Part shown: positions 1-15,045 of the stretch, piece after piece
How the letters are laid out: every line of letters begins with the position of its first letter
How positions within the stretch are numbered: position 1 is the stretch's first letter
NCBI GenBank assembly: GCA_020343475.1
Contig: CP070796.1
Location: 72,314 to 87,358 of the forward strand
Direction of reading: 5' to 3'
DNA: 15,045 bases
From: Candidatus Zixiibacteriota bacterium
GTDB lineage: Bacteria > Zixibacteria > MSB-5A5 > GN15 > PGXB01
Position numbers and translations under genes: made by a program
The notes under the pieces: model-generated
What the model saw: only the letters and a program-made list of their open reading frames with translations
What the model was told of the DNA's origin: nothing
Databases searched by the model: none

Positions 1-671
1 TGGCAGGCAAGGCAATCAAGGATATCGATTTTGCCGAGGCTATCGATATTTCTGACCAGATCATCGCACACCAGATCCCACGGCTTTAAGACCGGAAAGC
101 ACTCGAATTCCTCCTCGATATTATCCTCGGAAAAGGGGATCGCCTTGAGGTATTCAGCTCGCATCCCTATTGTATATGGCAGGTTTTCATATTGAATTCC
201 TGCTGCCTGAGTCTGCACATAGGGCGCAAGGCTGATATCGGTTCGTTTCTCCTGGACCGTCGGCGTTTCGCTGGTGCCACCGTATAAACCGCCATATCCA
301 CCGTACGAATCGTTTTCGCTGATGGCCTGGCGCTCGATGACCTTGTTGCGTTTCTTAAGTACCACGGCGTCGATTTTCCAGTACGGGTAATAGACAAAGC
401 GGTACTGAATATCTGAACCAGTCAACGGCTGGGAATGCTGTTTGAGGTGCCGGTCCAGCAAAAAGCGGATTTCACGTTTTGCTTTTCGGGGACGGATCAA
501 ATATGCCGGCGGGATATCGGGCATTGTTATCCGCAGCACCGATCCGCAGTGCTCGCATTCGAGGACAAAAAAATCCTGGTCCAGTTCGAGTCGGCCGCCG
601 CAGCCGGGACACCCGACTTCGATAAAGAATCCCGATTTATCCCTGTTTGTCTCTATCGTCGGGTTTTTCAT
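1..671 (-). CDS. Hypothetical protein with an N-terminal CxxC-x17-CxxC zinc ribbon. It is partial: the C-terminus lies beyond the window start. It is absent from the supplied ORF track because there is no in-window stop.
   Basis: I translated the reverse strand by hand from the ATG at 671 (frame top positions = 2 mod 3). The reading frame is open for 223 codons to position 3 and begins [45 protein letters not shown] purine-rich AAGAGAG lies 5-11 nt upstream. The start overlaps the stop of the upstream SPFH gene (637-639) by 35 nt. The composition is protein-like and a Gly/Tyr-rich segment (GYGGLYGG) is present. Confidence 0.55.
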
Positions 672-1779
672 TTACTCTCTTGCCGCATTCGCCGCAGAAC
701 TTCGAACCCGGGATCAGTTCCGCCGAGCAGTGCGGGCAGGTCATCTTGGCGTTAAGCTGGTGGCCGCATTTAAGGCAGAATTTCGCCTCGGTCGGCAGTT
801 CCTGGCCGCAGGAGGGACATTCGTTCTGCTTGACCATCATGTTTCCACAGCGGTAACAGTAGCGCGACTGTTCCGGTGTGTCGGCATGACATTTCGGGCA
901 GGTGACGGTGGCCACCGGTTCGCGGCGCAGGTCGGTTTGCTCCGGCTTGAAAACATTGGCCATGACACCCGGAAGCATCAATCCAACCCCGGCCGCCATA
1001 CCCATCCCGGCGCCAGTCCCGGCCGGGCCGCCGGGCGCGCCAAGCCCACGGGCCATCTCGAATTTCAAAAACCGGTCGAGATCACCGACAGCTTCCATAC
1101 CGGAACGCTGATCGATCAGTTTCGAGACATCTTCCGGAGGGGTAATGGATGAAATATAAAAATCAACCAGTTCCAGACCGTATTTCTCAAATTCGCTGCG
1201 GACAATTTCTTTAAAATCCTCGGCCAGCTCGGTATAGATTGCCGGTAATTCAAGAATGGTGTCCAGTTTCTCGCCCAGCAGGTCGTTCATGCGGGCGATG
1301 ATGACATCACGGAGATAACTCTGAATGTCGTTGGTGGTGTAGCGCGACTGCCGCCCGACAATGGAGTTGAGAAAGAGAATCGGGTTTTCGATCCTGAAGG
1401 TGAATGCCCCGTGGCCGCGCAGGCGGATCAGTCCCAGCTTGCTGTCCTGAAAAGTCACCGGATGCTTGGTGCCCCATTTCAGGTCGGTGAAAACCTTCAG
1501 ATTGACAAAATACACCTCCGCCCGAAACGGCGAATTGAAGCCAAACGGAAACGCTGCCAGACGTGTCAGGATCGGCAGGTTCATGGTTGTGAGAGTATGT
1601 CGTCCGGTGGTGAACGTATCGGCGGCATGGCCGCTCTTGAAAAAGATCGCGGTCTGGCTGTCGCGGACAATTAATTGCGCCCCAATTTTAAAATCGGCGG
1701 ATCCTTCCTGTGGTATCCGGTAAATCATTTCATCACCGGATGGATCCATCCATTCGATTACCTCAATAAGAATTGACAT
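637..1779 (-). CDS. SPFH/band-7 (stomatin/prohibitin/flotillin-like, COG4260/YdjI-like) protein with a C-terminal triple zinc-ribbon tail
   Basis: 380-aa ORF. The N-terminal approximately 270 aa resemble the band-7/SPFH family (start [20 protein letters not shown], typical of this family). A Gly/Ala/Met-rich linker follows. Three consecutive CxxC-x(9-12)-CxxC zinc-ribbon motifs close the protein (CPKC..CYRC, CPSC..CLKC, CPHC..CGEC). Confidence 0.85.
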
Positions 1780-2498: not shown

Positions 2499-4805
2499 AT
2501 GAAGAACACCAATCGACTAGCATGGGTAGCAATTGTGAGCATGCTTTTGCTGGCCGTGGCGGTCAGTGCCGGGACGCTTAAGACCAAGAGCAAGAAAATT
2601 GACGCTCCGCGGCTTACAGTCTCCGCGCTTAGCGATAAGACACTGCCACAGTATGTTCCGGCGGTATCCGCGGAAAAGCAATTCTTTGGTCCCAAGCAAG
2701 GCGGTGAGGACATAAGCACGGCGACCCCAATTCCGGGTCTGCCCTATGCGGATAATGGAACCACCGCAGGTGCCGCTGACGACTACGACCCCACTTTATC
2801 CGGCTACTGTTCCGCACCGACGGATGCCCCGGATGTGGTTTACTCATATACCCCCGCGGCTGGCGAGCTTATCAGCGTTACCAGCTGTAATTCCGCCTAC
2901 TGGACGCGACTGCTGATATACGAAAATGACAGCCTCAATCTGGTGGCCTGTAACCAGTACAGCGATAGTTGCGCCGATCCCTTTCATGCCGCCATTTTTG
3001 ACCAGATTGTCGTTCCTCCGAACACCTACTATATAGTAGTGGATGGTGGCCCTTCCGGCGGTGATCGCTTCGGCGAATATGAAATCCAGGTGACATCAAA
3101 GCCGCCGGTGGATACGCTGCGTATTCATCCCACATTGGGTGATGCCACTACCGATAATCTGATGCTGTCCTACCGCATCGAAGATTACGATTCGATAATC
3201 ATCTGGTCTTCCTCGGCCGACGACGGCGGCAGTTTCGGCAACAGTGTTTACTGGAGTTTGACTCCCGGCTGCGGGGATTATCCTTCTCTGGAATCCTGGG
3301 GGAACGGCTCGACCTTCCAAGGTACATACAGAATCCAGCCGGAATATGAAAATGGCGCGGTCATACCATGGATAGAGATCCTGAATTCAGCCGACAATGG
3401 TACGTGGTCGCACTGGTCCTGGAATTTCAAAGATCCCGGCGGATTCGATCTCCATGATATCATGGCGATTGATATCGCCGCCTGCAACAATTTGGAACCC
3501 TGGAAGTTTGGTTTTCTCTCGCTGGTTGCGAGCCTGAATTATTACGGCAGTCCTTACAATGATATTGAATTTATATTCTATCAGACCAGCGAGGATGGTT
3601 TTGCCACCATAAGCGCCTATGGTCTTGAAGGCTGTAATACCACCGCAAATGCCATTGACTCCGTTTCGAATAAGGCCTACGCCGCGTGGGACTTCTATGA
3701 CACCGATTCAAGCCGCTGGGCAATTGCCGTTCGCCAGGAAAGCTATGATAATTTCGATGACACTATTACTGCTTTCCCCGGCCTATATGGATTCTATGGC
3801 GGGACCGGGAATCTCCAGTATCAGGATATCGTGGCTTATGACAGCAATGTCCTGATTGTCTCGGAGTATTACGAGGATGGCACGCCCGACAATAAGGATC
3901 TTGTCTGTTCCTACGTCAACGACGCCGACTTCGGCATCGGCGAGGTCAGCTCCGTAACGATAGTGGAAACTGCGGATGCGGAGAGATTCCCGCGAATAAT
4001 TCATGTTGTTGATTCTTCATTCCTGGTGATCTTTGTTCGCAACGACTCCCTGTTTAAGGTCCTCACTGAGAACAACGGTGCCACCTGGGGCGTGCCTGAG
4101 TACGTAAGCATCGACGGTGATCTGGTTGTATCAGAGTACCGCACCGCCCATGTCTCCGAATCCGACGGTTATACCGCCAAGATTGTCTATTCATATTATG
4201 AGGGTGGAGGCAAGGCATACGACGGCCCGGTGTTTGTGCGACTTATAGAAACCTCCATTTATGAGTTTACTGACACCGATGGTGATGGTATTCAGGACAG
4301 TGAGGATAACTGCCCGAATGACTATAATCCGGAACAGACTGACCTCGACGAAGACGGACACGGTACCGAGTGCGATAATTGCCCGAACTTCTGGAATGAA
4401 GATCAGGCTGATAACGATGAAGATAATGTCGGTAACGTCTGCGATAACTGCATTGATGATCCCAATACCGATCAGTCCGACGTTGACGAGGACGACGTGG
4501 GCGATGTTTGCGACAACTGCCCGGATGTATACAATCCGGGTCAGGAAGACAGCAACGGCAATGACGTCGGTGACGCCTGTGATTATATCTGCGGTGATGC
4601 CAACAAGGACGAAGACATCAACCTGCTGGATATTCTCTACCTGATCGATTTTATCTATGGTAGCCCGACGGGCCCGGAACCTGATCCGTGGGAATCCGGG
4701 GATGTCAATGGTCCTGACGGTGACATCAACCTGCTGGATATTCTCTACCTGATCGATTTCATCTATGGTAGCCCAACGGGCCCGGATCCGGACTGCACTC
4801 CGTAG
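2499..4805 (+). CDS. Secreted multidomain protein: signal peptide, PPC-like jelly-roll, BNR/sialidase-like region, five thrombospondin type 3 (TSP3) calcium-binding repeats, and a C-terminal dockerin-like module
   Basis: 768-aa ORF. Signal peptide MKNTNRLAWVAIVSMLLLAVAVSA. PPC-like motif TYYIVVDGGPSGGDRFGEYEIQVT. BNR-like ENNGATWG. TSP3 repeats of the form DxDxDGxxDxxDNCPxxxNxxQxDxDxDGxGDxCD. The protein ends in two dockerin loop-helix repeats. Confidence 0.9.
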   Translation: MKNTNRLAWVAIVSMLLLAVAVSAGTLKTKSKKIDAPRLTVSALSDKTLPQYVPAVSAEKQFFGPKQGGEDISTATPIPGLPYADNGTTAGAADDYDPTLSGYCSAPTDAPDVVYSYTPAAGELISVTSCNSAYWTRLLIYENDSLNLVACNQYSDSCADPFHAAIFDQIVVPPNTYYIVVDGGPSGGDRFGEYEIQVTSKPPVDTLRIHPTLGDATTDNLMLSYRIEDYDSIIIWSSSADDGGSFGNSVYWSLTPGCGDYPSLESWGNGSTFQGTYRIQPEYENGAVIPWIEILNSADNGTWSHWSWNFKDPGGFDLHDIMAIDIAACNNLEPWKFGFLSLVASLNYYGSPYNDIEFIFYQTSEDGFATISAYGLEGCNTTANAIDSVSNKAYAAWDFYDTDSSRWAIAVRQESYDNFDDTITAFPGLYGFYGGTGNLQYQDIVAYDSNVLIVSEYYEDGTPDNKDLVCSYVNDADFGIGEVSSVTIVETADAERFPRIIHVVDSSFLVIFVRNDSLFKVLTENNGATWGVPEYVSIDGDLVVSEYRTAHVSESDGYTAKIVYSYYEGGGKAYDGPVFVRLIETSIYEFTDTDGDGIQDSEDNCPNDYNPEQTDLDEDGHGTECDNCPNFWNEDQADNDEDNVGNVCDNCIDDPNTDQSDVDEDDVGDVCDNCPDVYNPGQEDSNGNDVGDACDYICGDANKDEDINLLDILYLIDFIYGSPTGPEPDPWESGDVNGPDGDINLLDILYLIDFIYGSPTGPDPDCTP
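4272..4589 (+). other. Thrombospondin type 3 calcium-binding repeat array (about five repeats) inside the 2499-4805 CDS
   Basis: Asp-rich repeats DTDGDGIQDSEDNCPNDYNPEQTDLDEDGHGTECDNCPN... with a conserved DNCP/CDNC periodicity. Confidence 0.8.
4590..4802 (+). other. C-terminal dockerin-like module, copy 1 of 3 in this window: two 12-residue calcium-binding loops each followed by a LLDILYLIDFIYG helix, bracketed by Cys
   Basis: CGDANKDEDINLLDILYLIDFIYGSPTGPEPDPWESGDVNGPDGDINLLDILYLIDFIYGSPTGPDPDCTP. The loops fit D-x-[DN]-x-[DS]-x-x-x-[DN]-x-x-D of type I dockerin and EF-hand-like F-hand motifs. Confidence 0.8.
4614..4786 (+). repeat. Tandem direct repeat: two 65-bp copies (4614-4678 and 4722-4786) with 2 mismatches and a 108-bp period, encoding the two dockerin half-sites
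   Basis: gacatcaacctgctggatattctctacctgatcgatttYatctatggtagcccRacgggcccgga occurs twice. The remaining 43 bp of each unit have diverged. Confidence 0.9.
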
Positions 4806-6461: not shown

Positions 6462-7847
6462 ATGCGCGTTGCACCAATTTTTCTTCTCTCTATTCTTGTG
6501 TGTTTATTATCCTCAAGCCCATCTTCAGCCAATGACCGGCTGGAAGAGGAGTTTCAGGAAATTCAAAACAAAATTGAGCGGGAAGGGCTGAACTGGATTG
6601 CCAGGAAAAATCCGATAGTCGAGCAGATGACACCCGAAGAGCGTCAGCGGCTGAACGGCATCCGATTCCCTTCCAACTGGCGTGAAATCTGGGAATCGCA
6701 TCTTCGCGATGATTTTCAGGCGAAGTCAGCCACGGAACTGCCGGCGGCGTTTAACTGGGAGGATTCCGGCATGATTACCTCGGTTAAGAATCAGGGTGGG
6801 TGTGGATCCTGCTGGGATTTTTGTGCCACCGCAGCCTTCGAGGCGATATATAAGATACAGCGGCACAAGGACTTAGATATTTCAGAGCAGCATGTTCTGT
6901 CCTGCGTGTCACCGGGAGACGGCTGCAATGGAGGCTGGATGGATGACGCCTACAGTTATTATAAGTATGTCGGAGGCATTGACGAACAATGCATGCCGTA
7001 TCAGGCCAGCGATGATATTCCCTGCGCCAACGCCCAGGACTGCGACATCCTCGCGACTATTCGTGACTGGCAGGCTATTCCCAACAGCAGGCTGTCCATA
7101 AAAACCGCGGTCATGACTGCCCCGGTGGCGGTCGCTTTCACTGCCTACAACGATCTTTACTGGTATGGCGGGGGGTGTTACTACCATTCCGGCTATGATG
7201 ATGTCAATCATGGGGTTCTGATTGTTGGCTGGGACGATACCATGTGTGATGGCCAGGGTGCCTGGCGGGTTAAAAACAGCTGGGGCTACTGGTGGGGCGA
7301 CAACGGCTACTTCTGGATTCAGTATGATTGCTGCCACTTTGGTGTTGGCGCGGCGCTGCTTGAGATCGATACGACTCTCAATTTCCTGACCCCGCCACAA
7401 TTGCCGGTCGGCAGTATGTGCGCCGAATACAATTTCCAATTCGAGGCAACCGGAGGATTCACTCTCCCTTACAGCTATATCGTTCTCGACGGAAATCTCC
7501 CCCCGGGACTTATACTGGAACCGGACGGGCTTCTCCACGGCTTTTCGGAAAATGGGGGCAATTATGAGTTTACAGTTCGCGTTGCCGATGCTTTCTTTCC
7601 GGCCAGTTATTATTTTGATGACTTTACCTTAAGCGTCGAGGAGGCTCCCGAATGCGATGCCGATTGCAGTGGCGGGTTGAATCTAATCGATATACTTTAC
7701 ATGATTGATTACACATACAATGGGGGTCCGGATCCAATAACCGCCAGAAGTGGAGATTGCGATTGCTCTCGAGGATGCGATCTTCTTGATATTCTCTATC
7801 TGGTTGACTACCTTTATAATGAGGGGCCGGAGCCCTGTACTTATTGA
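6462..7847 (+). CDS. Secreted papain-like (family C1A) cysteine protease with pro-region, an Ig-like domain and a C-terminal dockerin-like module
   Basis: Signal peptide MRVAPIFLLSILVCLLSSSPSSA. Catalytic-Cys motif QGGCGSCWDF (Cys codon 6810-6812). His motif NHGVLIVGWDD (His codon 7209-7211). Asn motif WRVKNSWGYWWGDNGYFWI. C-terminal module (7651-7844) ECDADCSGGLNLIDILYMIDYTYNGGPDPITARSGDCDCSRGCDLLDILYLVDYLYNEGPEPCTY. Confidence 0.9.
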   Translation: MRVAPIFLLSILVCLLSSSPSSANDRLEEEFQEIQNKIEREGLNWIARKNPIVEQMTPEERQRLNGIRFPSNWREIWESHLRDDFQAKSATELPAAFNWEDSGMITSVKNQGGCGSCWDFCATAAFEAIYKIQRHKDLDISEQHVLSCVSPGDGCNGGWMDDAYSYYKYVGGIDEQCMPYQASDDIPCANAQDCDILATIRDWQAIPNSRLSIKTAVMTAPVAVAFTAYNDLYWYGGGCYYHSGYDDVNHGVLIVGWDDTMCDGQGAWRVKNSWGYWWGDNGYFWIQYDCCHFGVGAALLEIDTTLNFLTPPQLPVGSMCAEYNFQFEATGGFTLPYSYIVLDGNLPPGLILEPDGLLHGFSENGGNYEFTVRVADAFFPASYYFDDFTLSVEEAPECDADCSGGLNLIDILYMIDYTYNGGPDPITARSGDCDCSRGCDLLDILYLVDYLYNEGPEPCTY

Positions 7848-8129: not shown

Positions 8130-11100
8130 ATGAGTATGTGCAGAAAGCTGTTCATGTCAGCGATCCTGGTTCTGGCTACAGTAGCAATGGTCTCCGCTGA
8201 ACGGATTGAACTGGGTACCATCAGTGATGATATTGCTGTAACGGTCGAGGAATCTGGCGAAGCGCGTATTGTTGTTCGCTATGATATCGGTGCCTTTGAA
8301 AGGGAGGCGGTCATTGTTAACGGCGAGTTGTATTATTCAATCAGGTGCGGTGACGAGGCTTTCCTGTTAAGGGAGGGGGAGCCGGAATTGCCGCATGTCA
8401 GCCGGAGTGTTATTATCCCCGATAATGCCAAAATGGCGGCCAGGATAATTTCCTCGGAATATGTTGACTACATTGAGACACCGGTAATTTCATCCAAAGG
8501 CAACCTTTTGCGCACGGTCAATCCGGCCGACATTCCCTACAGTTTCGGCCCGGTTTATGCCGACAACGCCTTTTACCCCAAAAAGATCGTGAGCCTTCGC
8601 GATCCCTTTATTCTGAGGGATTTCCGGGGGACGGTAGTTGAACTGTATCCTTTTCAGTATAATCCGGCAGCGCGGACGCTGCGCGTATATTCATCTGTGA
8701 CGGTCGAAATTATCAATACCGGGCCGGGGGAGATAAACGTCTTCGAGCGCACCAAGAAAGAACCGAATTTCATTCCCGATTTCAGCCTGATATATCAGCG
8801 GCGCTTCATCAATTATGACGTCTTTGCCAAAGTATATCCGGAGGTTATGGAGTCGGGCGACATGCTCGTCATTACCTATGATCTGTTTCATTCTGCAATG
8901 ATACCGCTTGTTAATTGGAAACGTCAGAAAGGCATCAGAACTTTTATTGTCGACGTTTCCACGATCGGCAACAACAGTACCAGCATCGCGAACTACATCC
9001 AGGACTTTTACGATGCTGACAGTACCAATCTGGCCTGGGTCCTTCTGGTTGGCGACGCCTCGCAGGTCGCTACGCCGTATGCATCCGGCGGCGCTTCCGA
9101 TCCCAGCTATGCCAAGGTTTCCGGATCGGATAATTATCCGGACATCATCATCGGCCGTTTATCGGCGCAAACCATTGCTGACGTGGAAACCCAGGTGGAG
9201 CGAACCATAACATATGAAGTCAATCCCCCCGGTGGTGACTGGTTCCATCAGGCCACCGGAATCGCGTCGGCCGAAGGGCCAGGGCACGGCGGCGAATATG
9301 ATTATCAGCACATGGATAATATTCGCGATGATCTGCTTGCTTTCACATATACGCTGGTCGACCAGATTTATGATCCCGGCGCCACCGACGCGCAGGTAGC
9401 CGCCGCGGTCAATGATGGGCGCAGTCTTGTCAATTATTGTGGCCACGGCGGGCCGACCAGCTGGTCGACATCGTACTTCAACAATGCTGATGTCAATGCC
9501 CTTACCAATGATAATCTCCTGCCGTTTGTATTCAGTGTTGCCTGTAACAATGGCCAATTCGACTCGTACACCTGCTTTGCCGAAGCCTGGATGCGGGCCA
9601 CTCACAATGGGATTCCCACCGGTGCCATCGCGACCTACATGTCATCCATCCTCCAGTCCTGGTCGCCGCCAATGGATGCCCAGGATGAGGCCTGTGATCT
9701 TCTGGTGTCAATGGCCAAGACCACCGTTGGCGGGCTTTGTTATAACGGCTCGTGCAAGATGATTGAACTAAACGGCAGCGACGGAGTCAGCATGTATAAC
9801 ACCTGGCACATCTTCGGCGACCCGTCGGTGCAGATCTGGACTGATACGCCGGAACCGATGACGGTCAATCATGCCGATGCGGTTTTCTTTGTCGCCGAGG
9901 AATATGAAGTGGACGTGGTGGACGTGGAGGGCGCCCTCTGCGCGCTTTATTTTGACGGCGTTCTTTACGGTGCCGCATATACCGACATTAACGGTCACGC
10001 GGTCATTCCCATCTCGGACTTTCTGCCGATTGGAGAGGATGTGCTGCTGACCGTTACGGCATTTAATCGCGAGACGTATGTCGGCAGCGTGACGACCACC
10101 TCTGATCTGGCAATTATCCACCAGCCGCCGCTGGAGGATACGAAGGACACCCTCAACGATTACGATGTCTATTGCATGATTTATACTTCCGCGCCGTTAA
10201 TTGCCGATTCATTGTTGCTGAAGTACCAGATCAATTCCGTTTGGTATCTTGATACTCTGGAAGCGGTTGGCCCGGAAGGCGAATATGTCGGCACCATTCC
10301 CGCTCAGTCTGCCGGCACTGATGTTGTTTATTATATGGTGGCGGCCAATACTGGCGGTTTCATTGACTCGACCGTGGTCTATTCGTTCCGCGTCATTGAC
10401 TACGGCGTGAAACTGGATCCATCGTATGCATATCAAGTTGCCCCGGTGGACGATACGGTCTGGTACAGCCTTACCGTCACCAATGACGGGGTTCTGGAAG
10501 ACTCTTACAGTCTCAGCGTCATCGACAATTCCTGGGAAACGGCGCTCTTGGATGAAACCGGCACGATTCCGGTTACCGTAAGCACCTCGCTTTTCGGGGG
10601 GGAAGGATTCAATTTCAGGGTTCGTGTGATTATTCCGTTTAGCTGGGAGGATGAGTTCGACTCAATTGGGATTGTGGCGACTTCGGTAGCCGACGGCAAT
10701 TACAGTGCCACGGCTGCACTCAAAACCATCTCGGCCGGGCAGCCGTGGGAGATACCGTTCAGCGAAACCTTCCCGTTTGACACCTTTGACATGCATAAAT
10801 GGGAGGAGGTCACGGGGGCCGAAATAAATGAGCTGGGTCTTAATGAACCGACTCCATTGTACAGCTGCAATCTGAACGGTGATCCCAACCAGGGAGATAC
10901 AATCATCACGGAAAAAATCGATCTTCGGGACGCCGTAAATGCTCTTGTCCGTTACAGTTACCAGCGGACCGGAGGCGGCGAATCGCCCGACAGCGGTGAT
11001 GATTTGTATGCTGAATATCTTGATTCCCTCGGTAGCTGGGTTCAACTCCAGAGCCATCCCGGCGCGGGCGAGGACATGCTTGATTTTGAACAGGTGGAAA

Positions 11101-13313
11101 TACAGCTTCCCTCCGGCGCCTGGCATGCAGGCTTCCGTCTGAGGATACGTTGTGACGCCTCAACCGGCCCCTATGATGACTGGTTTGTGGACGACATTTA
11201 TATCGGCCTGCCGCCGGATTACGCCGTTGTCGTTGCTCCGGGCAATCAGTCGCAGTACGGCCCGGCTGGCGATACTGCCGCTTACACTATCATGCTGTTT
11301 AATCGCGGCGTTCAGGATGATCATTATGATCTCAGTTCATCCGGCGGCACCTGGGACATTAGCTTCTTTGATGAAAGCGGTCAGGTGCAGATTACGGCGA
11401 CCGATCTGATCGCAGCTGGCGATTCGGAACGAGTCACGGTTAAAGTAGCGATTCCATCAGATGCCATTATGAACGAGTCGGATGAAGCGATCCTTCTCGC
11501 AACCTCGCAGGGCGATCCGGGTATTTCCGCGTCCGCTTATGTAACCACGTACTCTGCGGGCCTGCCGGGGGGATTTCCCTGGTTTGAACCATTTCCGCAC
11601 GATACCATCGCTTCCGCTCGTTGGCTGTTCGTGATCGGTGCTCAGGTCACCGACGCCGCCATTGCGCCGCCATCGAGTCCGTATGCATTAAATCTGGATG
11701 GGGGCAATGATACTGTTGTATCGCAGCCGATTAATCTCTCCGGCGTTTCCGACGCCCTCCTGTCTTACTATTATCAGAGCGGCGGCAGTGAAGATGCGCC
11801 GGAATCCGGCGATAATCTTACGGTTGAATACAAAAACCAGTTCGGCGAATGGGTTGTCGCTCGGATTCATCAGGGCGGGGTGGCGACCATGTCGAGCTTC
11901 GAATGGGTCTGGATCGGGCTGCCTGCTGAGGCAGGTCACGGCGGCTTCCAGATCAGGTTCACGTCAATGGGTTCTGCGGCAGGTCTTGACAACTGGTATA
12001 TCGACGATATCCGCGTCGATCATGCCCCTGCGATATCGGTGACTCCCGCCCTATTCCAGCATACGCTGCTGCTGGGAGACTCGACGTTCGATGAATTGGT
12101 TATCAGCAACGATGGTCCGGGGATGCTGAGATATTCGGTAACCTCGGTGCCAATGTTGAATCTGCGCAGCGGATTTGCTGATTTACTGGCCGCGGGCCTG
12201 GTGGAGCCGGCGTCGCGGACATATCCTGACGGCTTTTTCGACTATGAAGATCTTAAAGGGATTGACGATCCCCGGGTCGGATTCCCCGTGGAGCGCGGGG
12301 CCGGGGGACCGGATCTTTTTGGACATTACTGGATAGATTCCGACGAATCGGGCGGGCCGGCTTTCGCCTGGGAAGATATCTCGGCAACCGGCATCGACGT
12401 TACCGGCAGCCTGACAGATGATAATTACAGCGGCCCGTATCAGCTCGGTTTCGATTTCTCCTTCTATGGCCAGATTTACAGCGAGTTTTACATCAGTTCC
12501 AACGGCCTGATCGGATTTGATTCAACCAATCTGAAATCCAGGCATAAAAAATCGATCCCGAACGATACTGCCCCGAACGCTATTGTGGCCTGGCTTTGGG
12601 ATGACCTCAATCCGGAAGACAGCGACAACCCCGGTGCGCAGGTCTATTATGATACAACCGGCGGGCGGTGTGTTATTATGTTTGTCGATTATCCGGAGTA
12701 CAGCGCCGGCCCCGGCGACGTGATTACCGCCGAAGTTATTCTGGAAGCCGATGGCACGATCAAGTTTCAGTATTTGAATATCGCGAGCGGTTTTGATATC
12801 GGGTCTGCGACTGTCGGGATTGAAAGCCCCGATGGTACCGATGGTCTGGAGGTGGCTTTTCTGACTGAATATGTTCACGACAGTCTGGCCGTCCAGTTCT
12901 TCAAGCCATACCAGTGGTTGACGCTTGACCGGGGATCAGGAGAACTGGCTCCCGAAGAAGCGGATACCATTACCTGCAAGTTTACCTCTGCAGAACTGGA
13001 GCAAGGATTATACTCGGCCAATATTATTATTGGCAGCAATGATCCTGATCCGGCCGACAATCCCTGGACGGTTGTTGCCGAACTTGAGATATTAACAGAG
13101 CCGCCGTTTATCTGCGGTGATGTCAACGATGACGATAATGTCGATCTTCTGGATCTGCTGTTTATTATCGCCTTTCTCTACGAAGACGGCCCGGCTCCGG
13201 GCAATCCGGACGCGGCCGACGTGGACGCGTCGGGTTCGTGCGATTTGATTGATATTCTCAATCTGATTGATTTTCTTTACGGAGAGGAGGGAGTAAAACT
13301 CGAGTGCCCGTAG
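8130..13313 (+). CDS. Giant secreted gingipain-like (family C25) cysteine protease with Ig/CARDB-like repeats, two MAM-like jelly-roll domains and a C-terminal dockerin-like module
   Basis: 1727-aa ORF. The functional start is probably the ATG at 8136, by RBS spacing. Signal peptide MCRKLFMSAILVLATVAMVSA. C25 catalytic dyad motifs NYCGHGGPTSW (His codon 9444-9446) and FVFSVACNNGQFD (Cys codon 9543-9545). Two paralogous roughly 150-aa MAM-like domains lie at about 10740-11210 and 11575-12010. C-terminal module (13112-13310) CGDVNDDDNVDLLDLLFIIAFLYEDGPAPGNPDAADVDASGSCDLIDILNLIDFLYGEEGVKLECP. Confidence 0.9.
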   Translation: MSMCRKLFMSAILVLATVAMVSAERIELGTISDDIAVTVEESGEARIVVRYDIGAFEREAVIVNGELYYSIRCGDEAFLLREGEPELPHVSRSVIIPDNAKMAARIISSEYVDYIETPVISSKGNLLRTVNPADIPYSFGPVYADNAFYPKKIVSLRDPFILRDFRGTVVELYPFQYNPAARTLRVYSSVTVEIINTGPGEINVFERTKKEPNFIPDFSLIYQRRFINYDVFAKVYPEVMESGDMLVITYDLFHSAMIPLVNWKRQKGIRTFIVDVSTIGNNSTSIANYIQDFYDADSTNLAWVLLVGDASQVATPYASGGASDPSYAKVSGSDNYPDIIIGRLSAQTIADVETQVERTITYEVNPPGGDWFHQATGIASAEGPGHGGEYDYQHMDNIRDDLLAFTYTLVDQIYDPGATDAQVAAAVNDGRSLVNYCGHGGPTSWSTSYFNNADVNALTNDNLLPFVFSVACNNGQFDSYTCFAEAWMRATHNGIPTGAIATYMSSILQSWSPPMDAQDEACDLLVSMAKTTVGGLCYNGSCKMIELNGSDGVSMYNTWHIFGDPSVQIWTDTPEPMTVNHADAVFFVAEEYEVDVVDVEGALCALYFDGVLYGAAYTDINGHAVIPISDFLPIGEDVLLTVTAFNRETYVGSVTTTSDLAIIHQPPLEDTKDTLNDYDVYCMIYTSAPLIADSLLLKYQINSVWYLDTLEAVGPEGEYVGTIPAQSAGTDVVYYMVAANTGGFIDSTVVYSFRVIDYGVKLDPSYAYQVAPVDDTVWYSLTVTNDGVLEDSYSLSVIDNSWETALLDETGTIPVTVSTSLFGGEGFNFRVRVIIPFSWEDEFDSIGIVATSVADGNYSATAALKTISAGQPWEIPFSETFPFDTFDMHKWEEVTGAEINELGLNEPTPLYSCNLNGDPNQGDTIITEKIDLRDAVNALVRYSYQRTGGGESPDSGDDLYAEYLDSLGSWVQLQSHPGAGEDMLDFEQVEIQLPSGAWHAGFRLRIRCDASTGPYDDWFVDDIYIGLPPDYAVVVAPGNQSQYGPAGDTAAYTIMLFNRGVQDDHYDLSSSGGTWDISFFDESGQVQITATDLIAAGDSERVTVKVAIPSDAIMNESDEAILLATSQGDPGISASAYVTTYSAGLPGGFPWFEPFPHDTIASARWLFVIGAQVTDAAIAPPSSPYALNLDGGNDTVVSQPINLSGVSDALLSYYYQSGGSEDAPESGDNLTVEYKNQFGEWVVARIHQGGVATMSSFEWVWIGLPAEAGHGGFQIRFTSMGSAAGLDNWYIDDIRVDHAPAISVTPALFQHTLLLGDSTFDELVISNDGPGMLRYSVTSVPMLNLRSGFADLLAAGLVEPASRTYPDGFFDYEDLKGIDDPRVGFPVERGAGGPDLFGHYWIDSDESGGPAFAWEDISATGIDVTGSLTDDNYSGPYQLGFDFSFYGQIYSEFYISSNGLIGFDSTNLKSRHKKSIPNDTAPNAIVAWLWDDLNPEDSDNPGAQVYYDTTGGRCVIMFVDYPEYSAGPGDVITAEVILEADGTIKFQYLNIASGFDIGSATVGIESPDGTDGLEVAFLTEYVHDSLAVQFFKPYQWLTLDRGSGELAPEEADTITCKFTSAELEQGLYSANIIIGSNDPDPADNPWTVVAELEILTEPPFICGDVNDDDNVDLLDLLFIIAFLYEDGPAPGNPDAADVDASGSCDLIDILNLIDFLYGEEGVKLECP

Positions 13314-13387: not shown

Positions 13388-14197
13388 TCAGGTCAGCCGG
13401 ATGGTACCATCCTGCACCACAACAAGCCCGTCCTTTTGGAGGGATTTTAAAGCGGCCATGGTCAATTCCCGTTGATGATGTTTGCTGTTCAGCAGTGATG
13501 CAAGATTGATTCTGTTTCTTATTGTCAGCCATCTGATAATTTCACCCCGAATTTGCCTGCGGGAATCGGGAAAACGCGACTGTTTTGTCAGCGGAGGGAG
13601 ATTAGCAAGGCGCCTGGGCAGAAAAATCCGGCTGTAGTCCATAAGGGCATTGTGCCAATCCCGCGAACGATTTTTAGGCAGAAGGCGTTGCGCAATGACT
13701 TCGAGCTGCTCTCTTATGGTCGAACCGGGCAGCCCAAATTCATGAAGAATCACGCGGCGGATATTGGTGTCGACGGTGATCAAAGGCATATTGTAAGCGA
13801 AAATGAGGATGGCACGGGCGGTATACGGACCGATGCCCGGGAAAGATTGCAGGGTATCGGGGTCATTGGGAAGTTTTCCGTCAAACTCAGAGACCACTTT
13901 TTTCGCCAGCTGGCCAAGAAAGAGGGCGCGGCGGTTGTATCCGAGTCCGACCCACGCCGTCAGAAGCTGGCGATTGGTGGCTTTCGCCAGTTGTTTCCAG
14001 GATGGCCATTTTTCAATCCAGGCAAGATATTTGGGGACGACTCGACTTGCCTGAGTCTGTTGCAGCATGATTTCCGCTACCGTTATCCGGTACGGATCGG
14101 TTGTTTCCCGAAATGGCAATACCCTGCGATTCCGACGGTAGAATCTCCATATCTTTCGCCGAAAGGTCCGAATCCGATTGGGTGTCAAAGCATTCAT
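13388..14197 (-). CDS. MutY/endonuclease III-like HhH-GPD DNA glycosylase, completely Cys-free: no [4Fe-4S] cluster loop and no NUDIX-like C-terminal domain
   Basis: 269 aa, clearly alignable to the E. coli MutY catalytic domain. AEIMLQQTQ matches SEVMLQQTQ, with the catalytic Glu conserved. LGYNRRA matches LGYYARA. HhH-GPD FPGIGPYTARAIL. VDTNIRRV matches VDGNVKRV, with the catalytic Asp conserved. There is no Lys at the EndoIII lyase position. The sequence contains no cysteines. Confidence 0.85.
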   Translation of the reverse strand: MNALTPNRIRTFRRKIWRFYRRNRRVLPFRETTDPYRITVAEIMLQQTQASRVVPKYLAWIEKWPSWKQLAKATNRQLLTAWVGLGYNRRALFLGQLAKKVVSEFDGKLPNDPDTLQSFPGIGPYTARAILIFAYNMPLITVDTNIRRVILHEFGLPGSTIREQLEVIAQRLLPKNRSRDWHNALMDYSRIFLPRRLANLPPLTKQSRFPDSRRQIRGEIIRWLTIRNRINLASLLNSKHHQRELTMAALKSLQKDGLVVVQDGTIRLT

Positions 14198-14315
14198 CCT
14201 TGATTCTAATACGATTATTTCCGGCCTAAAGTATCTGTTGACATGAGATATTGCAGGCTGTTTATTTAGTTAAATCCAATTATAAGACTATAATGCTCTT
14301 GCTTGAAGGGATTCT

Positions 14316-15045
14316 ATGGGACAGCCGGCAGCCAGAGTAGGTGATCAAACGGCTCATGGGGGCGTAATTACAGGTCCAGGGGTCGCGACCGTTTTGATCG
14401 GGAAAAAACCGGCGGCTGTCTTGGGCGATATGCATACCTGCCCGATGCAAACCCCGGCGGCCCCCTCGCCGATACCTCACGTCGGCGGGCCGATTACAAA
14501 GGGCTCCTCAGGGGTTCTGATCGGGAAAAAGCCGGCGGCCCGGGTTGGCGATATGGCAACCTGCACCGGGCCGCCTGATTCAATTGTGGTCGGGTGCCCG
14601 ACCGTTCTGATCGGCGAAAGCGGGGGCGGGGGCGGCGGTGCCGCCGGGGGGGGCGGACAGCAGGTTCAGGCCACATCGGAAAGCACCGAAGTTGAACCGG
14701 GCCACTACCTTGAGGTGAAATTTGTCGATAAAAGCGGCAAACCTATCTCCGGTGTCGATTATTCCGTGGAAGGGCCTGACAATCGTATTGAGAAAGGAGC
14801 GCTGGCACACAAAATCAAAAAGACCGGTCTTGAAGAGGGCGATTATAAGATCGTTCTGAAAGCCATTACCGGCGCAAAGTGGTCCACAGATTCCGCAAAA
14901 GTGGGCGAGACGGTAACCCTGAGCGCGAAAGCATCCGGTATCGAAAGCGGCGAGAAAGCGACTTTTGAAATATATATCAAGGATCCCAGCTTCGCCGACA
15001 AGGGGCTCGCGACGATTGAAACCACCGTAGACGACGATAAGATCG
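14316..15045 (+). CDS. PAAR-repeat protein (T6SS/eCIS spike-tip family) with a Gly-rich linker and a C-terminal extension. It is partial: it continues beyond the window end. It is absent from the supplied ORF track.
   Basis: I translated by hand from the ATG at 14316 (RBS GAAGGGA 6 nt upstream). The frame is open for 243 codons to the window end. The sequence is MGQPAARVGDQTAHGGVITGPGVATVLIGKKPAAVLGDMHTCPMQTPAAPSPIPHVGGPITKGSSGVLIGKKPAARVGDMATCTGPPDSIVVGCPTVLIGE. It shows three PAAR motifs with the characteristic GD-x-x-(H/T/C) and LIGxKPAA spacing, then a GESGGGGGGAAGGGGQQ linker, then a beta-rich C-terminal domain of at least 125 aa. Confidence 0.8.
   Translation, partial: MGQPAARVGDQTAHGGVITGPGVATVLIGKKPAAVLGDMHTCPMQTPAAPSPIPHVGGPITKGSSGVLIGKKPAARVGDMATCTGPPDSIVVGCPTVLIGESGGGGGGAAGGGGQQVQATSESTEVEPGHYLEVKFVDKSGKPISGVDYSVEGPDNRIEKGALAHKIKKTGLEEGDYKIVLKAITGAKWSTDSAKVGETVTLSAKASGIESGEKATFEIYIKDPSFADKGLATIETTVDDDKI
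14646..14653 (+). repeat. G8 homopolymer inside the Gly-rich linker of the PAAR gene, within a G-rich stretch (14621-14655) with G-quadruplex potential
   Basis: cgggggcgggggcggcggtgccgccggggggggcgg. The run of eight G is at 14646-14653. Confidence 0.9.

What the first reader, a model, noticed from the sequence alone, without database searches (positions are those of the whole stretch)
14316..15045. Unannotated PAAR spike-tip gene with C-terminal extension at the window edge, with no T6SS or eCIS genes in sight
A hand-translated ORF missing from the track encodes a textbook PAAR domain with three PAAR motifs. It is fused through a GGGGGGAAGGGG linker to a beta-rich C-terminal domain of at least 125 aa that I cannot assign (GHYLEVKFVDKSGKPISGVDYSV... 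GDYKIVLKAITGAKWSTD... EKATFEIYIKD). PAAR proteins with C-terminal extensions are T6SS or contractile-injection-system cargo carriers. Here the gene sits divergently next to a DNA glycosylase and downstream of a dockerin-protease cluster, with no VgrG, Hcp, sheath or baseplate gene within 14 kb upstream. It is either an orphan PAAR-effector whose partners lie downstream of the window, or part of a non-canonical system.
Basis: partly seen in the sequence, partly recalled or inferred. Interest (0 to 1): 0.7.

Follow-up and report, generated by a model that had tools for sequence, protein, structure and literature searches.

The report
Type VI secretion spike-tip gene, truncated
The open reading frame is a real but ordinary type VI secretion spike-tip (PAAR) gene cut off by the end of the assembled sequence; in related bacteria the same gene opens a complete secretion-system cluster, so it is very probably not an orphan.

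Summary
The ORF at 14316-15045 is real. It is 243 codons, open at the window end, and matches Pfam PAAR_motif at 83.9 bits (cutoff 27). It is not unannotated: NCBI holds the identical 243-aa protein as "PAAR domain-containing protein, partial" from a Zixibacteria MAG, so the sequence stops inside the gene.

Full-length homologues (more than 3000 hits) are about 350 aa. They have a PAAR cone, a glycine linker and tandem Ig-like/prealbumin-like beta-sandwich domains. None has a toxin domain.

The closest relative is 76% identical and has the same upstream porin, C1 and C25 peptidase genes. There the PAAR gene is followed on one strand by a 1164-aa OmpA-like/HExxH protein, a beta-propeller, a lipoprotein, an Eag-type DUF1795 chaperone, a paralogue of the PAAR extension, a variable membrane-active protein, then ClpV, TssB, TssC, Hcp, VgrG, TssE, TssF and TssG. 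T6SS core genes lie within the roughly 10 kb fetched on each side in 16 of 21 distinct loci.

The T6SS "missing" from the window therefore lies beyond the contig end. The extension most likely docks cargo. In some relatives it is fused directly to OmpA, peptidoglycan-binding or protease domains. This is a new member of a known kind, of low to moderate interest.

The parts
14316..15045 (+). 5' part (codons 1-243 of about 350) of a PAAR protein gene with an Ig-like extension, cut by the end of the sequence
   Evidence: Open frame from ATG 14316 to the window end. Identical to NCBI UCD17390.1, 'PAAR domain-containing protein, partial'. 76% identical over all 243 aa to the 353-aa P0002.
14316..14618 (+). 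PAAR cone domain (residues 1-101). Repeats PAAR, PAAV, PAAR. N-terminal AARxxDxxxH. His14, His40, Cys42, His55 and Cys83 are conserved.
14619..14687 (+). Glycine-rich flexible linker (residues 102-124)
   Evidence: Sequence SGGGGGGAAGGGGQQVQATSESTE. The matching stretch 103-124 of the orthologue model has pLDDT below 50. A G-run is conserved in the family.
14688..15044 (+). First beta-sandwich domain and most of the second (residues 125-243) of the C-terminal extension. The rest of domain 2, a helix and a prealbumin-like third domain (about 110 aa) lie beyond the window.
14289..14311 (+). Possible expression signals: TATAAT at 14289-14294 and GAAGGGA at 14305-14311, four bases before the ATG
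   Evidence: Read from the sequence only. The sigma-70 scan found no complete -35/-10 pair on the + strand in the 14198-14315 intergenic region. Untested.

Best explanation
The ORF is the first two thirds of a roughly 350-aa T6SS spike-tip protein.

Shown:
- Its N-terminal 100 residues form a complete, orphan-type PAAR cone.
- A flexible glycine linker then tethers tandem Ig-like/prealbumin-like beta-sandwich domains. These carry no enzymatic domain.
- The gene is cut by the end of a contig.

Inferred from established PAAR biology:
- The cone caps the VgrG trimer.

Inferred by synteny:
- In the intact genome this gene opens a one-strand cluster: PAAR-Ig, an effector slot (in many relatives a roughly 1160-aa OmpA-like/HExxH protein with a beta-propeller and a lipoprotein, which are immunity candidates), a DUF1795/Eag-type chaperone, a stand-alone paralogue of the PAAR extension, a variable second effector, then ClpV, TssB, TssC, Hcp, VgrG and TssE/F/G of a subtype-iii-like T6SS.

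Inferred mechanism:
- The beta-sandwich extension is a docking platform that holds non-covalently bound cargo effectors at the spike tip. This is analogous to the transthyretin-like extension of VgrG proteins and to the B. fragilis VgrG-PAAR cargo complex.
- The whole tip is fired into a neighbouring cell when the sheath contracts.
For: PAAR identity:
- Pfam at 83.9 bits.
- Conserved AARxxDxxxH and His/Cys positions, interpreted with PMC7773334.

No toxin domain:
- Nearly all of the best 120 homologues are 326-370 aa, with only faint SpaA/CarboxypepD_reg hits after PAAR.
- The fold is tandem Ig-like.

Contig end:
- NCBI has the identical 243-aa 'partial' protein.

T6SS linkage:
- L001/L086 is collinear with the window: porin 64%, C1 68%, C25 70% and PAAR 76% identity. 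It carries split ClpV, TssB, TssC, TssD, VgrG, TssE, TssF and TssG downstream on the same strand. Pfam confirms all except TssF, which scores 24.4 bits against a cutoff of 25; tblastn finds that gene 48% identical to the TssF of L005.
- The same order is seen in Zixibacteria LS998015.1 and CP070824.1, reached independently from the Ig380 protein, and in L009, L015 and L016.
- 19 of 24 loci (16 of 21 distinct) have T6SS core genes inside the locus. Three of the five exceptions are short contigs.

Cargo role:
- The PAAR extension is paralogous to the Ig380 protein encoded next to the Eag-like gene (E 6e-20).
- The Eag-like gene passes the Pfam DcrB threshold.
- Fused relatives exist: P0218 is PAAR-Ig plus the N-terminal part of the p1164 family; P0257 adds OmpA, EF-hand and a calpain-type protease; P0226 and P0168 add PG_binding_1; P0196 is a VgrG-like hub carrying the same module.
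- The gene after Ig380 varies in length from 261 to 928 aa, and some versions have hydrophobic hairpins. One weakly matches the T6SS effector family BTH_I2691.

Window genome:
- An Ig380 orthologue (UCD17302.1, 64% identity) sits on the same 2,846,532-bp record.
Against: - The DNA downstream of the window in this genome was never seen. Neither P0001 nor P0284 is in the position index.
- On the NCBI record the Ig380 orthologue is 88 protein accessions before the PAAR fragment, not about 5 genes after it. That fits a pseudo-chromosome built from contigs joined by N-gaps. A record whose proteins fall in the same accession range has a 100-N gap. It would equally fit a PAAR gene about 100 kb from the main cluster.
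- No p1164 orthologue from this genome was found.
- The structural model is of the 76%-identical orthologue, not of the window protein.
Confidence: 0.72

Rival explanations
1. It is a T6SS PAAR tip, but the Ig-like domains are not a cargo dock. They act as an adhesin or receptor-binding decoration, or simply as a spacer, helping the spike tip engage the target-cell surface or its polysaccharide.
For: The closest fold matches after PAAR include adhesin repeats, intimin/invasin, pilin and macroglobulin domains. The same module occurs as repeats in giant proteins of 3000-4000 aa that look like adhesins (P0148, P0203, P0212).
Against: The extension is fused to OmpA, PG-binding or protease payloads, or to a VgrG-like hub, in relatives. 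It has a stand-alone paralogue always encoded next to an Eag-type chaperone and a variable effector-like gene. Both patterns are typical of loading modules. No carbohydrate-binding family reached threshold.
Confidence: 0.15
2. In this particular genome the gene is a true orphan or a dead fragment. It would be separated by a rearrangement from the T6SS cluster, which lies about 88 genes away, or truncated.
For: The Ig380 orthologue of the same record is 88 accession numbers earlier, and numbering is sequential along the window. No p1164 orthologue from this genome was found. A glycosylase gene is inserted between C25 and PAAR here, whereas the relative keeps only a 64-aa relic.
Against: NCBI labels the protein 'partial' and gives it an accession, which happens at sequence ends or gaps and not for internal pseudogenes (own knowledge of PGAP practice). 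A record whose proteins fall in the same accession range contains a 100-N contig joint. The frame is intact for all 243 codons, with every conserved residue in place. In all three Zixibacteria genomes where it could be read (L086, L087, L088), the PAAR-Ig gene and the T6SS core sit in one cluster.
Confidence: 0.1
3. It is the spike tip of an extracellular contractile injection system or a phage-tail-like particle, not of a T6SS.
Against: The PAAR fold is shared by all these machines, so these matches do not discriminate. Every informative neighbourhood holds T6SS-specific genes: ClpV, TssB/TssC sheath, Hcp, TssE/F/G and an Eag chaperone. The T6SS-linked loci read gene by gene show no eCIS or phage tail module. 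Two contain a LysM gene (L004/L013) and one contains Peptidase_C1 and abhydrolase genes on the opposite strand (L088).
Confidence: 0.03

Closest known systems
Orphan PAAR proteins of T6SS (E. coli c1882, PDB 4JIW; V. cholerae VCA0105; Shneider et al. 2013)
   Different: It carries a roughly 250-aa C-terminal extension of a glycine linker plus tandem beta-sandwich domains, which orphan PAARs lack.
B. fragilis T6SS-iii spike cargo complexes (PAAR of PDB 8GRA; BtpeA-BtaeB-BtapC on VgrG, PDB 9JG8; BtaeB N-terminal domain, 9JDH)
VgrG proteins with a C-terminal transthyretin-like (TTR) extension (EAEC VgrG1-Tle1; P. aeruginosa VgrG2a/2b)
   Same: A small prealbumin/TTR-like beta-sandwich hangs on a flexible linker from a spike component and recruits a cargo effector (PMC10715212, PMC7376260). 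The last domain of the family gives faint SpaA/CarboxypepD_reg hits and a weak hit to the VgrG2b C-terminal structure 6h56 (E 0.54). One relative (P0196) has the module on a VgrG-like hub.
   Different: The carrier is PAAR, one copy per spike, not VgrG, three copies. There are three tandem domains rather than one. Effector binding is untested.
Eag (DUF1795) chaperone-dependent prePAAR effectors (Tse6-EagT6, RhsA-EagR)
   Same: A DUF1795/DcrB gene above the Pfam threshold (44.5 bits against 27.2) is a conserved member of the cassette. Some variable proteins downstream have hydrophobic helices.
   Different: The PAAR protein here has no transmembrane domains and an unsplit PAAR. The hydrophobic segments lie in the middle of a separate protein, not N-terminal to the PAAR. 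The Eag gene directly precedes the Ig380 paralogue in most loci read, not the PAAR gene.
eCIS spike-tip proteins (Afp10/Cis10; SalCis10, PDB 9RCE)
   Same: SalCis10 is the best PDB sequence match for the PAAR domain (E 3.8e-34), aligned with a shift of one PAAR repeat.
   Different: The genomic context in the T6SS-linked relatives is T6SS, not eCIS. SalCis10 is 99 aa with no extension.

Membership tests
PAAR-repeat spike-tip proteins (Pfam PF05488) | Profile match above the curated threshold | tested here: met
   83.9 bits against a cutoff of 27, E 9e-24, on the window protein.
PAAR-repeat spike-tip proteins (Pfam PF05488) | Three PAAR-type repeats and conserved His/Cys zinc-site positions, including the N-terminal DxxxH | tested here: met
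   PAAR 4-7, PAAV 32-35, PAAR 73-76, and D10xxxH14. H14, C42, H55 and C83 are invariant, and H40 is near-invariant, in 114 homologues. The role of these residues is taken from PMC7773334. Metal binding itself was not tested.
PAAR-repeat spike-tip proteins (Pfam PF05488) | Conical beta-structure that fits the blunt end of a VgrG/gp5 beta-helix | tested here: met
NCBIfam NF033420, T6SS PAAR protein (equivalog domain) | Score above the curated cutoff | tested here: not met
   26.1 bits against a cutoff of 124. The protein is not a member of that narrow (proteobacterial) equivalog.
T6SS-associated PAAR (as opposed to phage or eCIS) | Encoded in or next to a cluster with TssB/C sheath, Hcp, VgrG, TssE/F/G and ClpV | tested here: inconclusive
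   Met in relatives: L086, L087, L088, L004, L005, L008, L009, L012, L014-L016 and others, 16 of 21 distinct loci. Not readable for the window's own genome. Only an Ig380 orthologue on the same record is known.
Specialised (evolved) PAAR effector: PAAR fused to a toxin | A C-terminal toxin or enzymatic domain on the same polypeptide | tested here: not met
   Full-length orthologues stop at about 350 aa. Pfam finds only PAAR plus faint prealbumin-like hits. The model shows beta-sandwich domains only. Longer relatives with OmpA, PG_binding or calpain domains exist but are other proteins.
prePAAR / Eag-dependent effectors | N-terminal transmembrane domain(s) between the prePAAR motif and a split PAAR | tested here: not met
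   The AARxxDxxxH motif is contiguous with the PAAR domain. No hydrophobic segment was found in the orthologue.
T6SS subtype iii (Bacteroidota type), for the cluster in relatives | Sheath and tube proteins of the subtype-iii families rather than subtype i | tested here: met
   In L086, TssC matches PF17541 at 251.9 bits and TssD matches PF17642 at 79.1 bits. The T6SS-i NCBIfam equivalogs fail: TssB 33 against 97, Hcp 16 against 59, TssC no hit. That these Pfam models derive from Bacteroidales systems is from my own knowledge.
T6SS subtype iii (Bacteroidota type), for the cluster in relatives | TssN/O/P/Q/R membrane complex in place of TssJ/L/M | not tested
   The fetched loci end at TssF or TssG. 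The region beyond was not read.
eCIS tip protein (Afp10/Cis10) | Location in an eCIS operon (Afp-type sheath and tube, tape measure, Afp11-type baseplate, Afp15-type ATPase) | tested here: not met
   The T6SS-linked loci read gene by gene contain T6SS-specific ClpV, TssB/C and Hcp and no such operon. The window's 14 kb upstream has none.

The most novel reading that the evidence does not exclude
The PAAR-Ig gene marks an undescribed, horizontally mobile 'spike-tip loading cassette'. Its parts are the PAAR-Ig protein, an OmpA-like/HExxH giant effector, a beta-propeller, an Eag-type chaperone, a stand-alone paralogue of the PAAR extension, and a polymorphic effector. The cassette is plugged into both subtype-i and subtype-iii T6SS cores across Zixibacteria, Ignavibacteria, Fibrobacterota and Desulfobacterota. 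The subtype-iii cores would then extend a T6SS class that current reviews restrict to Bacteroidota, and they use a ClpV split into two polypeptides. In this reading the Ig-like module is a general connector that docks cargo either covalently (fused relatives) or through its free paralogue.
Probability: 0.4. Interest if true: 0.5.

Novelty: new member of a known kind. Interest (0 to 1): 0.3.

Why it matters
For the scan, the apparent anomaly (a PAAR gene with no injection machinery nearby) is an artefact of where the assembly ends. It should not be carried forward as a candidate non-canonical system.

For T6SS biology the side results have modest value:
- A large family of PAAR proteins, so far uncharacterised as far as I could find, carries an Ig-like docking module.
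- The family comes with a conserved accessory cassette and natural fusion proteins that point to its cargo.
- There is genomic evidence for subtype-iii-type T6SS in uncultivated FCB-group phyla. A 2026 review (PMC13584744) still describes that subtype as confined to Bacteroidota.

Tried and rejected
- **Window genome look-ups.** Looking up the window protein (P0001) and the same-genome Ig380 orthologue (P0284) in the contig index found neither on record. The window's own downstream DNA could not be fetched.
- **p1164 search.** A search with the p1164 protein, meant to find the orthologue in the window's genome, returned 10 hits and none from the 2.85-Mb record.
- **Circular-junction idea.** I considered that the record is a circular chromosome opened inside the PAAR gene. 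It is not supported. The one Ig380 orthologue found lies 88 accessions before the PAAR fragment, not near the start of the numbering. A gapped pseudo-chromosome is more likely.
- **p1164 structure.** AF2 of the 1164-aa neighbour gave mean pLDDT 52, with the HExxH region unmodelled. Foldseek on that model gave nothing at E <= 0.001, only non-significant hits to TagL and Pal peptidoglycan-binding domains. Profile-versus-PDB gave only weak OmpA/Pal hits, best E 1e-3.
- **Expression signals and RNAs.** The sigma-70 promoter scan found no full promoter upstream of the gene on the + strand. Rfam found nothing in the window. Composition is unremarkable.
- **Membrane-complex idea.** I considered that the conserved genes between PAAR and ClpV are the subtype-iii membrane complex (TssN-R). 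I rejected this because the same genes also accompany subtype-i cores.
- **eCIS reading.** Rejected on genomic context, despite the SalCis10 match.
- **Literature.** Searches for T6SS in Zixibacteria, Ignavibacteria or Fibrobacterota found nothing relevant in the held library. Shneider 2013 is not held.

Full report
**1. The observation**

ATG at 14316 opens a frame that runs without a stop to the last base of the window: 243 codons plus one base. The mechanical ORF list omits it only because it runs off the end.

The translation matches Pfam PAAR_motif at 83.9 bits (cutoff 27, E 9e-24). It stays below the narrow NCBIfam T6SS_PAAR equivalog, at 26 bits against 124. The protein has PAAR at residues 4-7, PAAV at 32-35 and PAAR at 73-76.

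The upstream 14 kb holds no T6SS or eCIS gene. tblastn with T6SS core proteins finds nothing. The large ORFs are a divergent HhH-GPD glycosylase, a C25 peptidase with dockerin, a C1 peptidase, a dockerin/TSP3 protein, an SPFH protein with zinc ribbons, and a 448-aa protein with no Pfam family.

The identical 243-aa protein is in NCBI as UCD17390.1, [quoted passage not shown]. "Partial", together with an exact match to the window's last codon, means the sequence (a contig, or a contig inside a gapped scaffold) ends there.

**2. What the whole protein looks like**

The search returned 3133 homologues at E <= 0.001, and nearly all of the best 120 are 326-370 aa. Alignments of 18 and 114 of them show the following architecture:
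- a PAAR domain (1-100);
- a glycine run;
- a conserved region of about 230 aa ending near residue 350.

Invariant positions include H14, C42, H55 and C83, and H40 is kept in at least 90% of sequences. With D10xxxH14 these match the zinc-site pattern described for orphan PAARs (PMC7773334). All of these residues are present in the window protein.

An AlphaFold2 model of the closest full-length orthologue (P0002, 76% identical to the window fragment) has mean pLDDT 89. The linker (103-124) is disordered. Beta-strands group at 131-189, 193-248 and 272-347, with one helix at 253-264.

There is no enzymatic or toxin domain.

**3. Which machine it belongs to**

The closest relative, L001 (the same sequence as JGI contig L086), is collinear with the window. 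Protein identities are porin 64%, C1 peptidase 68%, C25 peptidase 70% and PAAR 76%. A 64-aa relic sits where the window has its glycosylase gene.

Downstream of its PAAR gene, all on one strand, L086 carries:
- a 1164-aa protein;
- a PQQ-like beta-propeller (374 aa);
- a 264/281-aa protein with a lipoprotein-type signal when read from the upstream GTG;
- a DcrB/DUF1795 protein (Pfam 44.5 bits against 27.2);
- a 380-aa protein, called "Ig380" here;
- a 791-aa protein with a hydrophobic hairpin;
- ClpV as two adjacent ORFs (486 and 365 aa);
- TssB (T6SS_VipA), TssC (PF17541, 252 bits), Hcp/TssD (PF17642, 79 bits), VgrG (Phage_GPD plus Phage_base_V), TssE (gp25), TssF and TssG. TssF is just under the Pfam cutoff (24.4 bits against 25), but tblastn finds it 48% identical to the TssF of L005.

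ClpV starts about 10.8 kb after the PAAR start codon.

The same order is found in other genomes:
- Zixibacteria LS998015.1 (L087) and CP070824.1 (L088). I reached these independently, starting from Ig380 homologues.
- Zixibacteria L009 and L016, and Ignavibacteriaceae L015.
- In Desulfosarcina (L004/L013), Thermodesulfobacteriota (L012), Ignavibacteria (L014, L017) and others, the PAAR-Ig gene directly follows VgrG of a subtype-i core.

Overall, 19 of 24 loci (16 of 21 distinct) contain T6SS core genes within the fetched sequence. Of the five exceptions, three are short contigs, one exhausts the 10-kb flank just after Ig380, and one (L020, 37% identity) shows none.

No eCIS or phage tail module appears in the T6SS-linked loci read gene by gene. 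The best PDB sequence hit is the eCIS tip SalCis10 (E 3.8e-34, register shifted by one repeat). That reflects the shared PAAR fold and nothing more.

**4. The window's own genome**

I could not read past the window. The position index has neither the PAAR fragment nor the same-genome Ig380 orthologue.

What is known:
- Proteins of the window are numbered sequentially in NCBI: UCD17384 SPFH, UCD17385 dockerin protein, UCD17387 C1 peptidase, UCD17390 PAAR.
- An Ig380 orthologue (UCD17302.1, 64% identical to L001's, named "carboxypeptidase regulatory-like domain-containing protein") lies on a record of the same length, 2,846,532 bp.
- That orthologue is 88 accessions before the PAAR fragment, not about five genes after it.
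- Proteins of other "MAG chromosome" records (CP070707.1, CP070824.1) carry accessions in the same UCC-UCF range. One of those records has a 100-N contig joint inside the fetched locus.

The simplest reading is a pseudo-chromosome of joined contigs, where order across gaps means nothing. A real separation of about 100 kb cannot be excluded. No p1164 orthologue from this genome was found. That is compatible with the alternative effector slot seen in L009, L015 and L016.

**5. How it most likely works**

Shown:
- The PAAR cone is complete and of the orphan type.
- A flexible linker follows it, then non-catalytic beta-sandwich domains.
- Relatives show tight, conserved linkage to T6SS cores and to an Eag-type chaperone gene.

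Inferred from established T6SS biology:
- The cone caps the VgrG trimer and is fired with it.

Inferred mechanism:
- The extension is a docking module for cargo.

Support for the docking role:
- *Paralogy.* Residues 179-344 of the PAAR protein are homologous to residues 112-284 of Ig380 (E 6e-20). Ig380 is encoded next to the Eag-like gene in most loci read. The gene after it varies from 261 to 928 aa, and some versions have hydrophobic hairpins. One version weakly resembles the T6SS effector family BTH_I2691.
- *Fusions.* A phmmer scan of 1.8 billion representatives with the window's extension found 240 clusters, mostly PAAR-fused. Among the longer ones:
  - P0218 (1534 aa) aligns over the whole PAAR-Ig protein (E 2e-30) and then over residues 35-314 of the p1164 family (E 2e-12). 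That is a fusion of the two neighbouring genes.
  - P0257 adds OmpA, an EF-hand and a calpain-type protease.
  - P0226 and P0168 add PG_binding_1.
  - P0196 carries the module on a VgrG-like hub.
- *Functional precedent.* The transthyretin-like extension of VgrG binds Tle1 by fold complementation (PMC10715212; PMC7376260).

The p1164 family keeps an OmpA-type GHTDxxG...N..LS..RA motif, with weak but consistent Pal/OmpA hits (best E 1e-3). It also keeps an HExxH, present in all 8 complete members of one set and invariant in a second set of 10. This suggests a periplasm-acting, peptidoglycan-binding metallopeptidase. The adjacent beta-propeller and lipoprotein would be immunity candidates. That part is hypothesis: the AF2 model was poor and its fold search was empty.

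**6. Comparison and novelty**

PAAR proteins with C-terminal extensions were recognised as a class in 2013 (Shneider et al., as cited in PMC7773334). Cargo loading through spike-attached adaptor domains is established.

This protein is therefore a new member of a known kind. Its particular Ig-like extension and cassette are, as far as the held literature shows, uncharacterised. It fails the tests for a PAAR-toxin fusion, a prePAAR effector and an eCIS tip.

The more notable points are by-products:
- Subtype-iii-type T6SS cores occur in Zixibacteria and Ignavibacteria. A 2026 review still confines that subtype to Bacteroidota (PMC13584744), and I found no paper on T6SS in these phyla.
- ClpV is consistently split into two ORFs.
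- The same cassette is shared between subtype-i and subtype-iii systems.

**7. Verdict**

The feature is real and correctly identified as PAAR. The puzzle of the missing machinery is explained by the sequence ending inside the first gene of a T6SS locus. I put confidence at about 0.85 that it is a T6SS tip protein. The T6SS linkage rests on synteny rather than on this genome's own DNA. I put confidence at about 0.5 for the cargo-docking role of the extension. Interest is low to moderate.

Noticed in passing
L086 12576-14036 and 14039-15136; L015 15960-17432 and 17425-18519; L016 10968-12419 and 12419-13516; L088 12724-14187 and 14184-15281: The ClpV ATPase of the subtype-iii-like clusters is encoded as two adjacent ORFs. 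The first (about 485 aa) holds Clp_N, the first AAA domain and a lid. The second (365 aa) holds AAA_2 and ClpB_D2-small. This recurs in several Zixibacteria and an Ignavibacteriaceae genome, whereas L005 has a single 840-aa gene. The recurrence argues for a real split rather than a sequencing error.
   Followed up: partly
L086 15161-22304; L087; L088; L009; L015; L016: T6SS cores of the subtype-iii kind (TssC PF17541, TssD PF17642; T6SS-i NCBIfam equivalogs fail) occur in Zixibacteria and Ignavibacteriaceae MAGs. A 2026 review states that subtype iii is restricted to Bacteroidota (PMC13584744), and no paper in the held library links T6SS to these phyla. TssN-R genes were not looked for.
   Followed up: partly
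L004/L013, L008, L012, L014, L017 (subtype i) versus L005, L009, L015, L016, L086-L088 (subtype iii): The same accessory cassette travels with two different T6SS subtypes in different phyla, which suggests horizontal exchange of the spike-tip module. The cassette is PAAR-Ig, the p1164 OmpA-like/HExxH protein, a beta-propeller, a DUF1795 chaperone and Ig380.
   Followed up: partly
P0218 (1534 aa), P0257 (951 aa), P0226, P0168, P0196: Natural fusion proteins exist. They are PAAR-Ig joined to the N-terminal OmpA-like part of the p1164 family; PAAR-Ig joined to OmpA, an EF-hand and a calpain-type cysteine protease; PAAR-Ig joined to PG_binding_1; and a VgrG-like hub carrying the same prealbumin-like module.
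   Followed up: partly
window 2499-4805, 6462-7847, 8130-13313: Three secreted-looking proteins each end in a type I dockerin domain: a 768-aa TSP3-repeat protein, a C1 papain-like peptidase and a 1727-aa C25 gingipain-like peptidase. The C1 and C25 genes are conserved in the same order in L001. A dockerin-tagged protease set in a Zixibacteria genome hints at a cohesin-dockerin surface assembly. No cohesin was looked for.
   Followed up: no
window 13388-14197 (-) versus L001 8737-8928: The HhH-GPD glycosylase gene that sits divergently next to the PAAR gene is absent from the collinear relative. That relative keeps only a 64-aa, 37.5%-identical N-terminal relic at the same place, so the region immediately upstream of the PAAR gene has been remodelled.
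   Followed up: no
NCBI proteins UCD17302.1 and UCD17390.1 (same 2,846,532-bp record): The window genome's orthologue of the cassette protein Ig380 is 88 protein accessions before the PAAR fragment, although in relatives the two genes are about 5-6 kb apart. The record may be a pseudo-chromosome of N-joined contigs. CP070707.1, whose proteins fall in the same accession range, has a 100-N run at L011 6404-6503.
   Followed up: partly
PDB 9rce_c versus the PAAR-Ig profile: The PAAR domain of this T6SS family is closer in sequence to the eCIS tip SalCis10 (E 3.8e-34) than to the solved T6SS PAARs. The alignment is circularly shifted by one PAAR repeat: query 33-99 aligns to chain 4-71, and query 2-30 to chain 72-99.
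   Followed up: no
window 637-1779 (-): A 380-aa protein combines an SPFH/Band-7 domain with a C-terminal array of double zinc ribbons. NCBI names it an SPFH domain-containing protein, UCD17384.1. It is unrelated to the finding.
   Followed up: no
L088 4144-5282: In CP070824.1 the PAAR-Ig gene upstream of the cassette is missing from the gene table of the contig index, although an intact frame is there. It has a PAAR-like N-terminus of the P0218 type: KPAARNTDMATTCNDPTD....
   Followed up: partly
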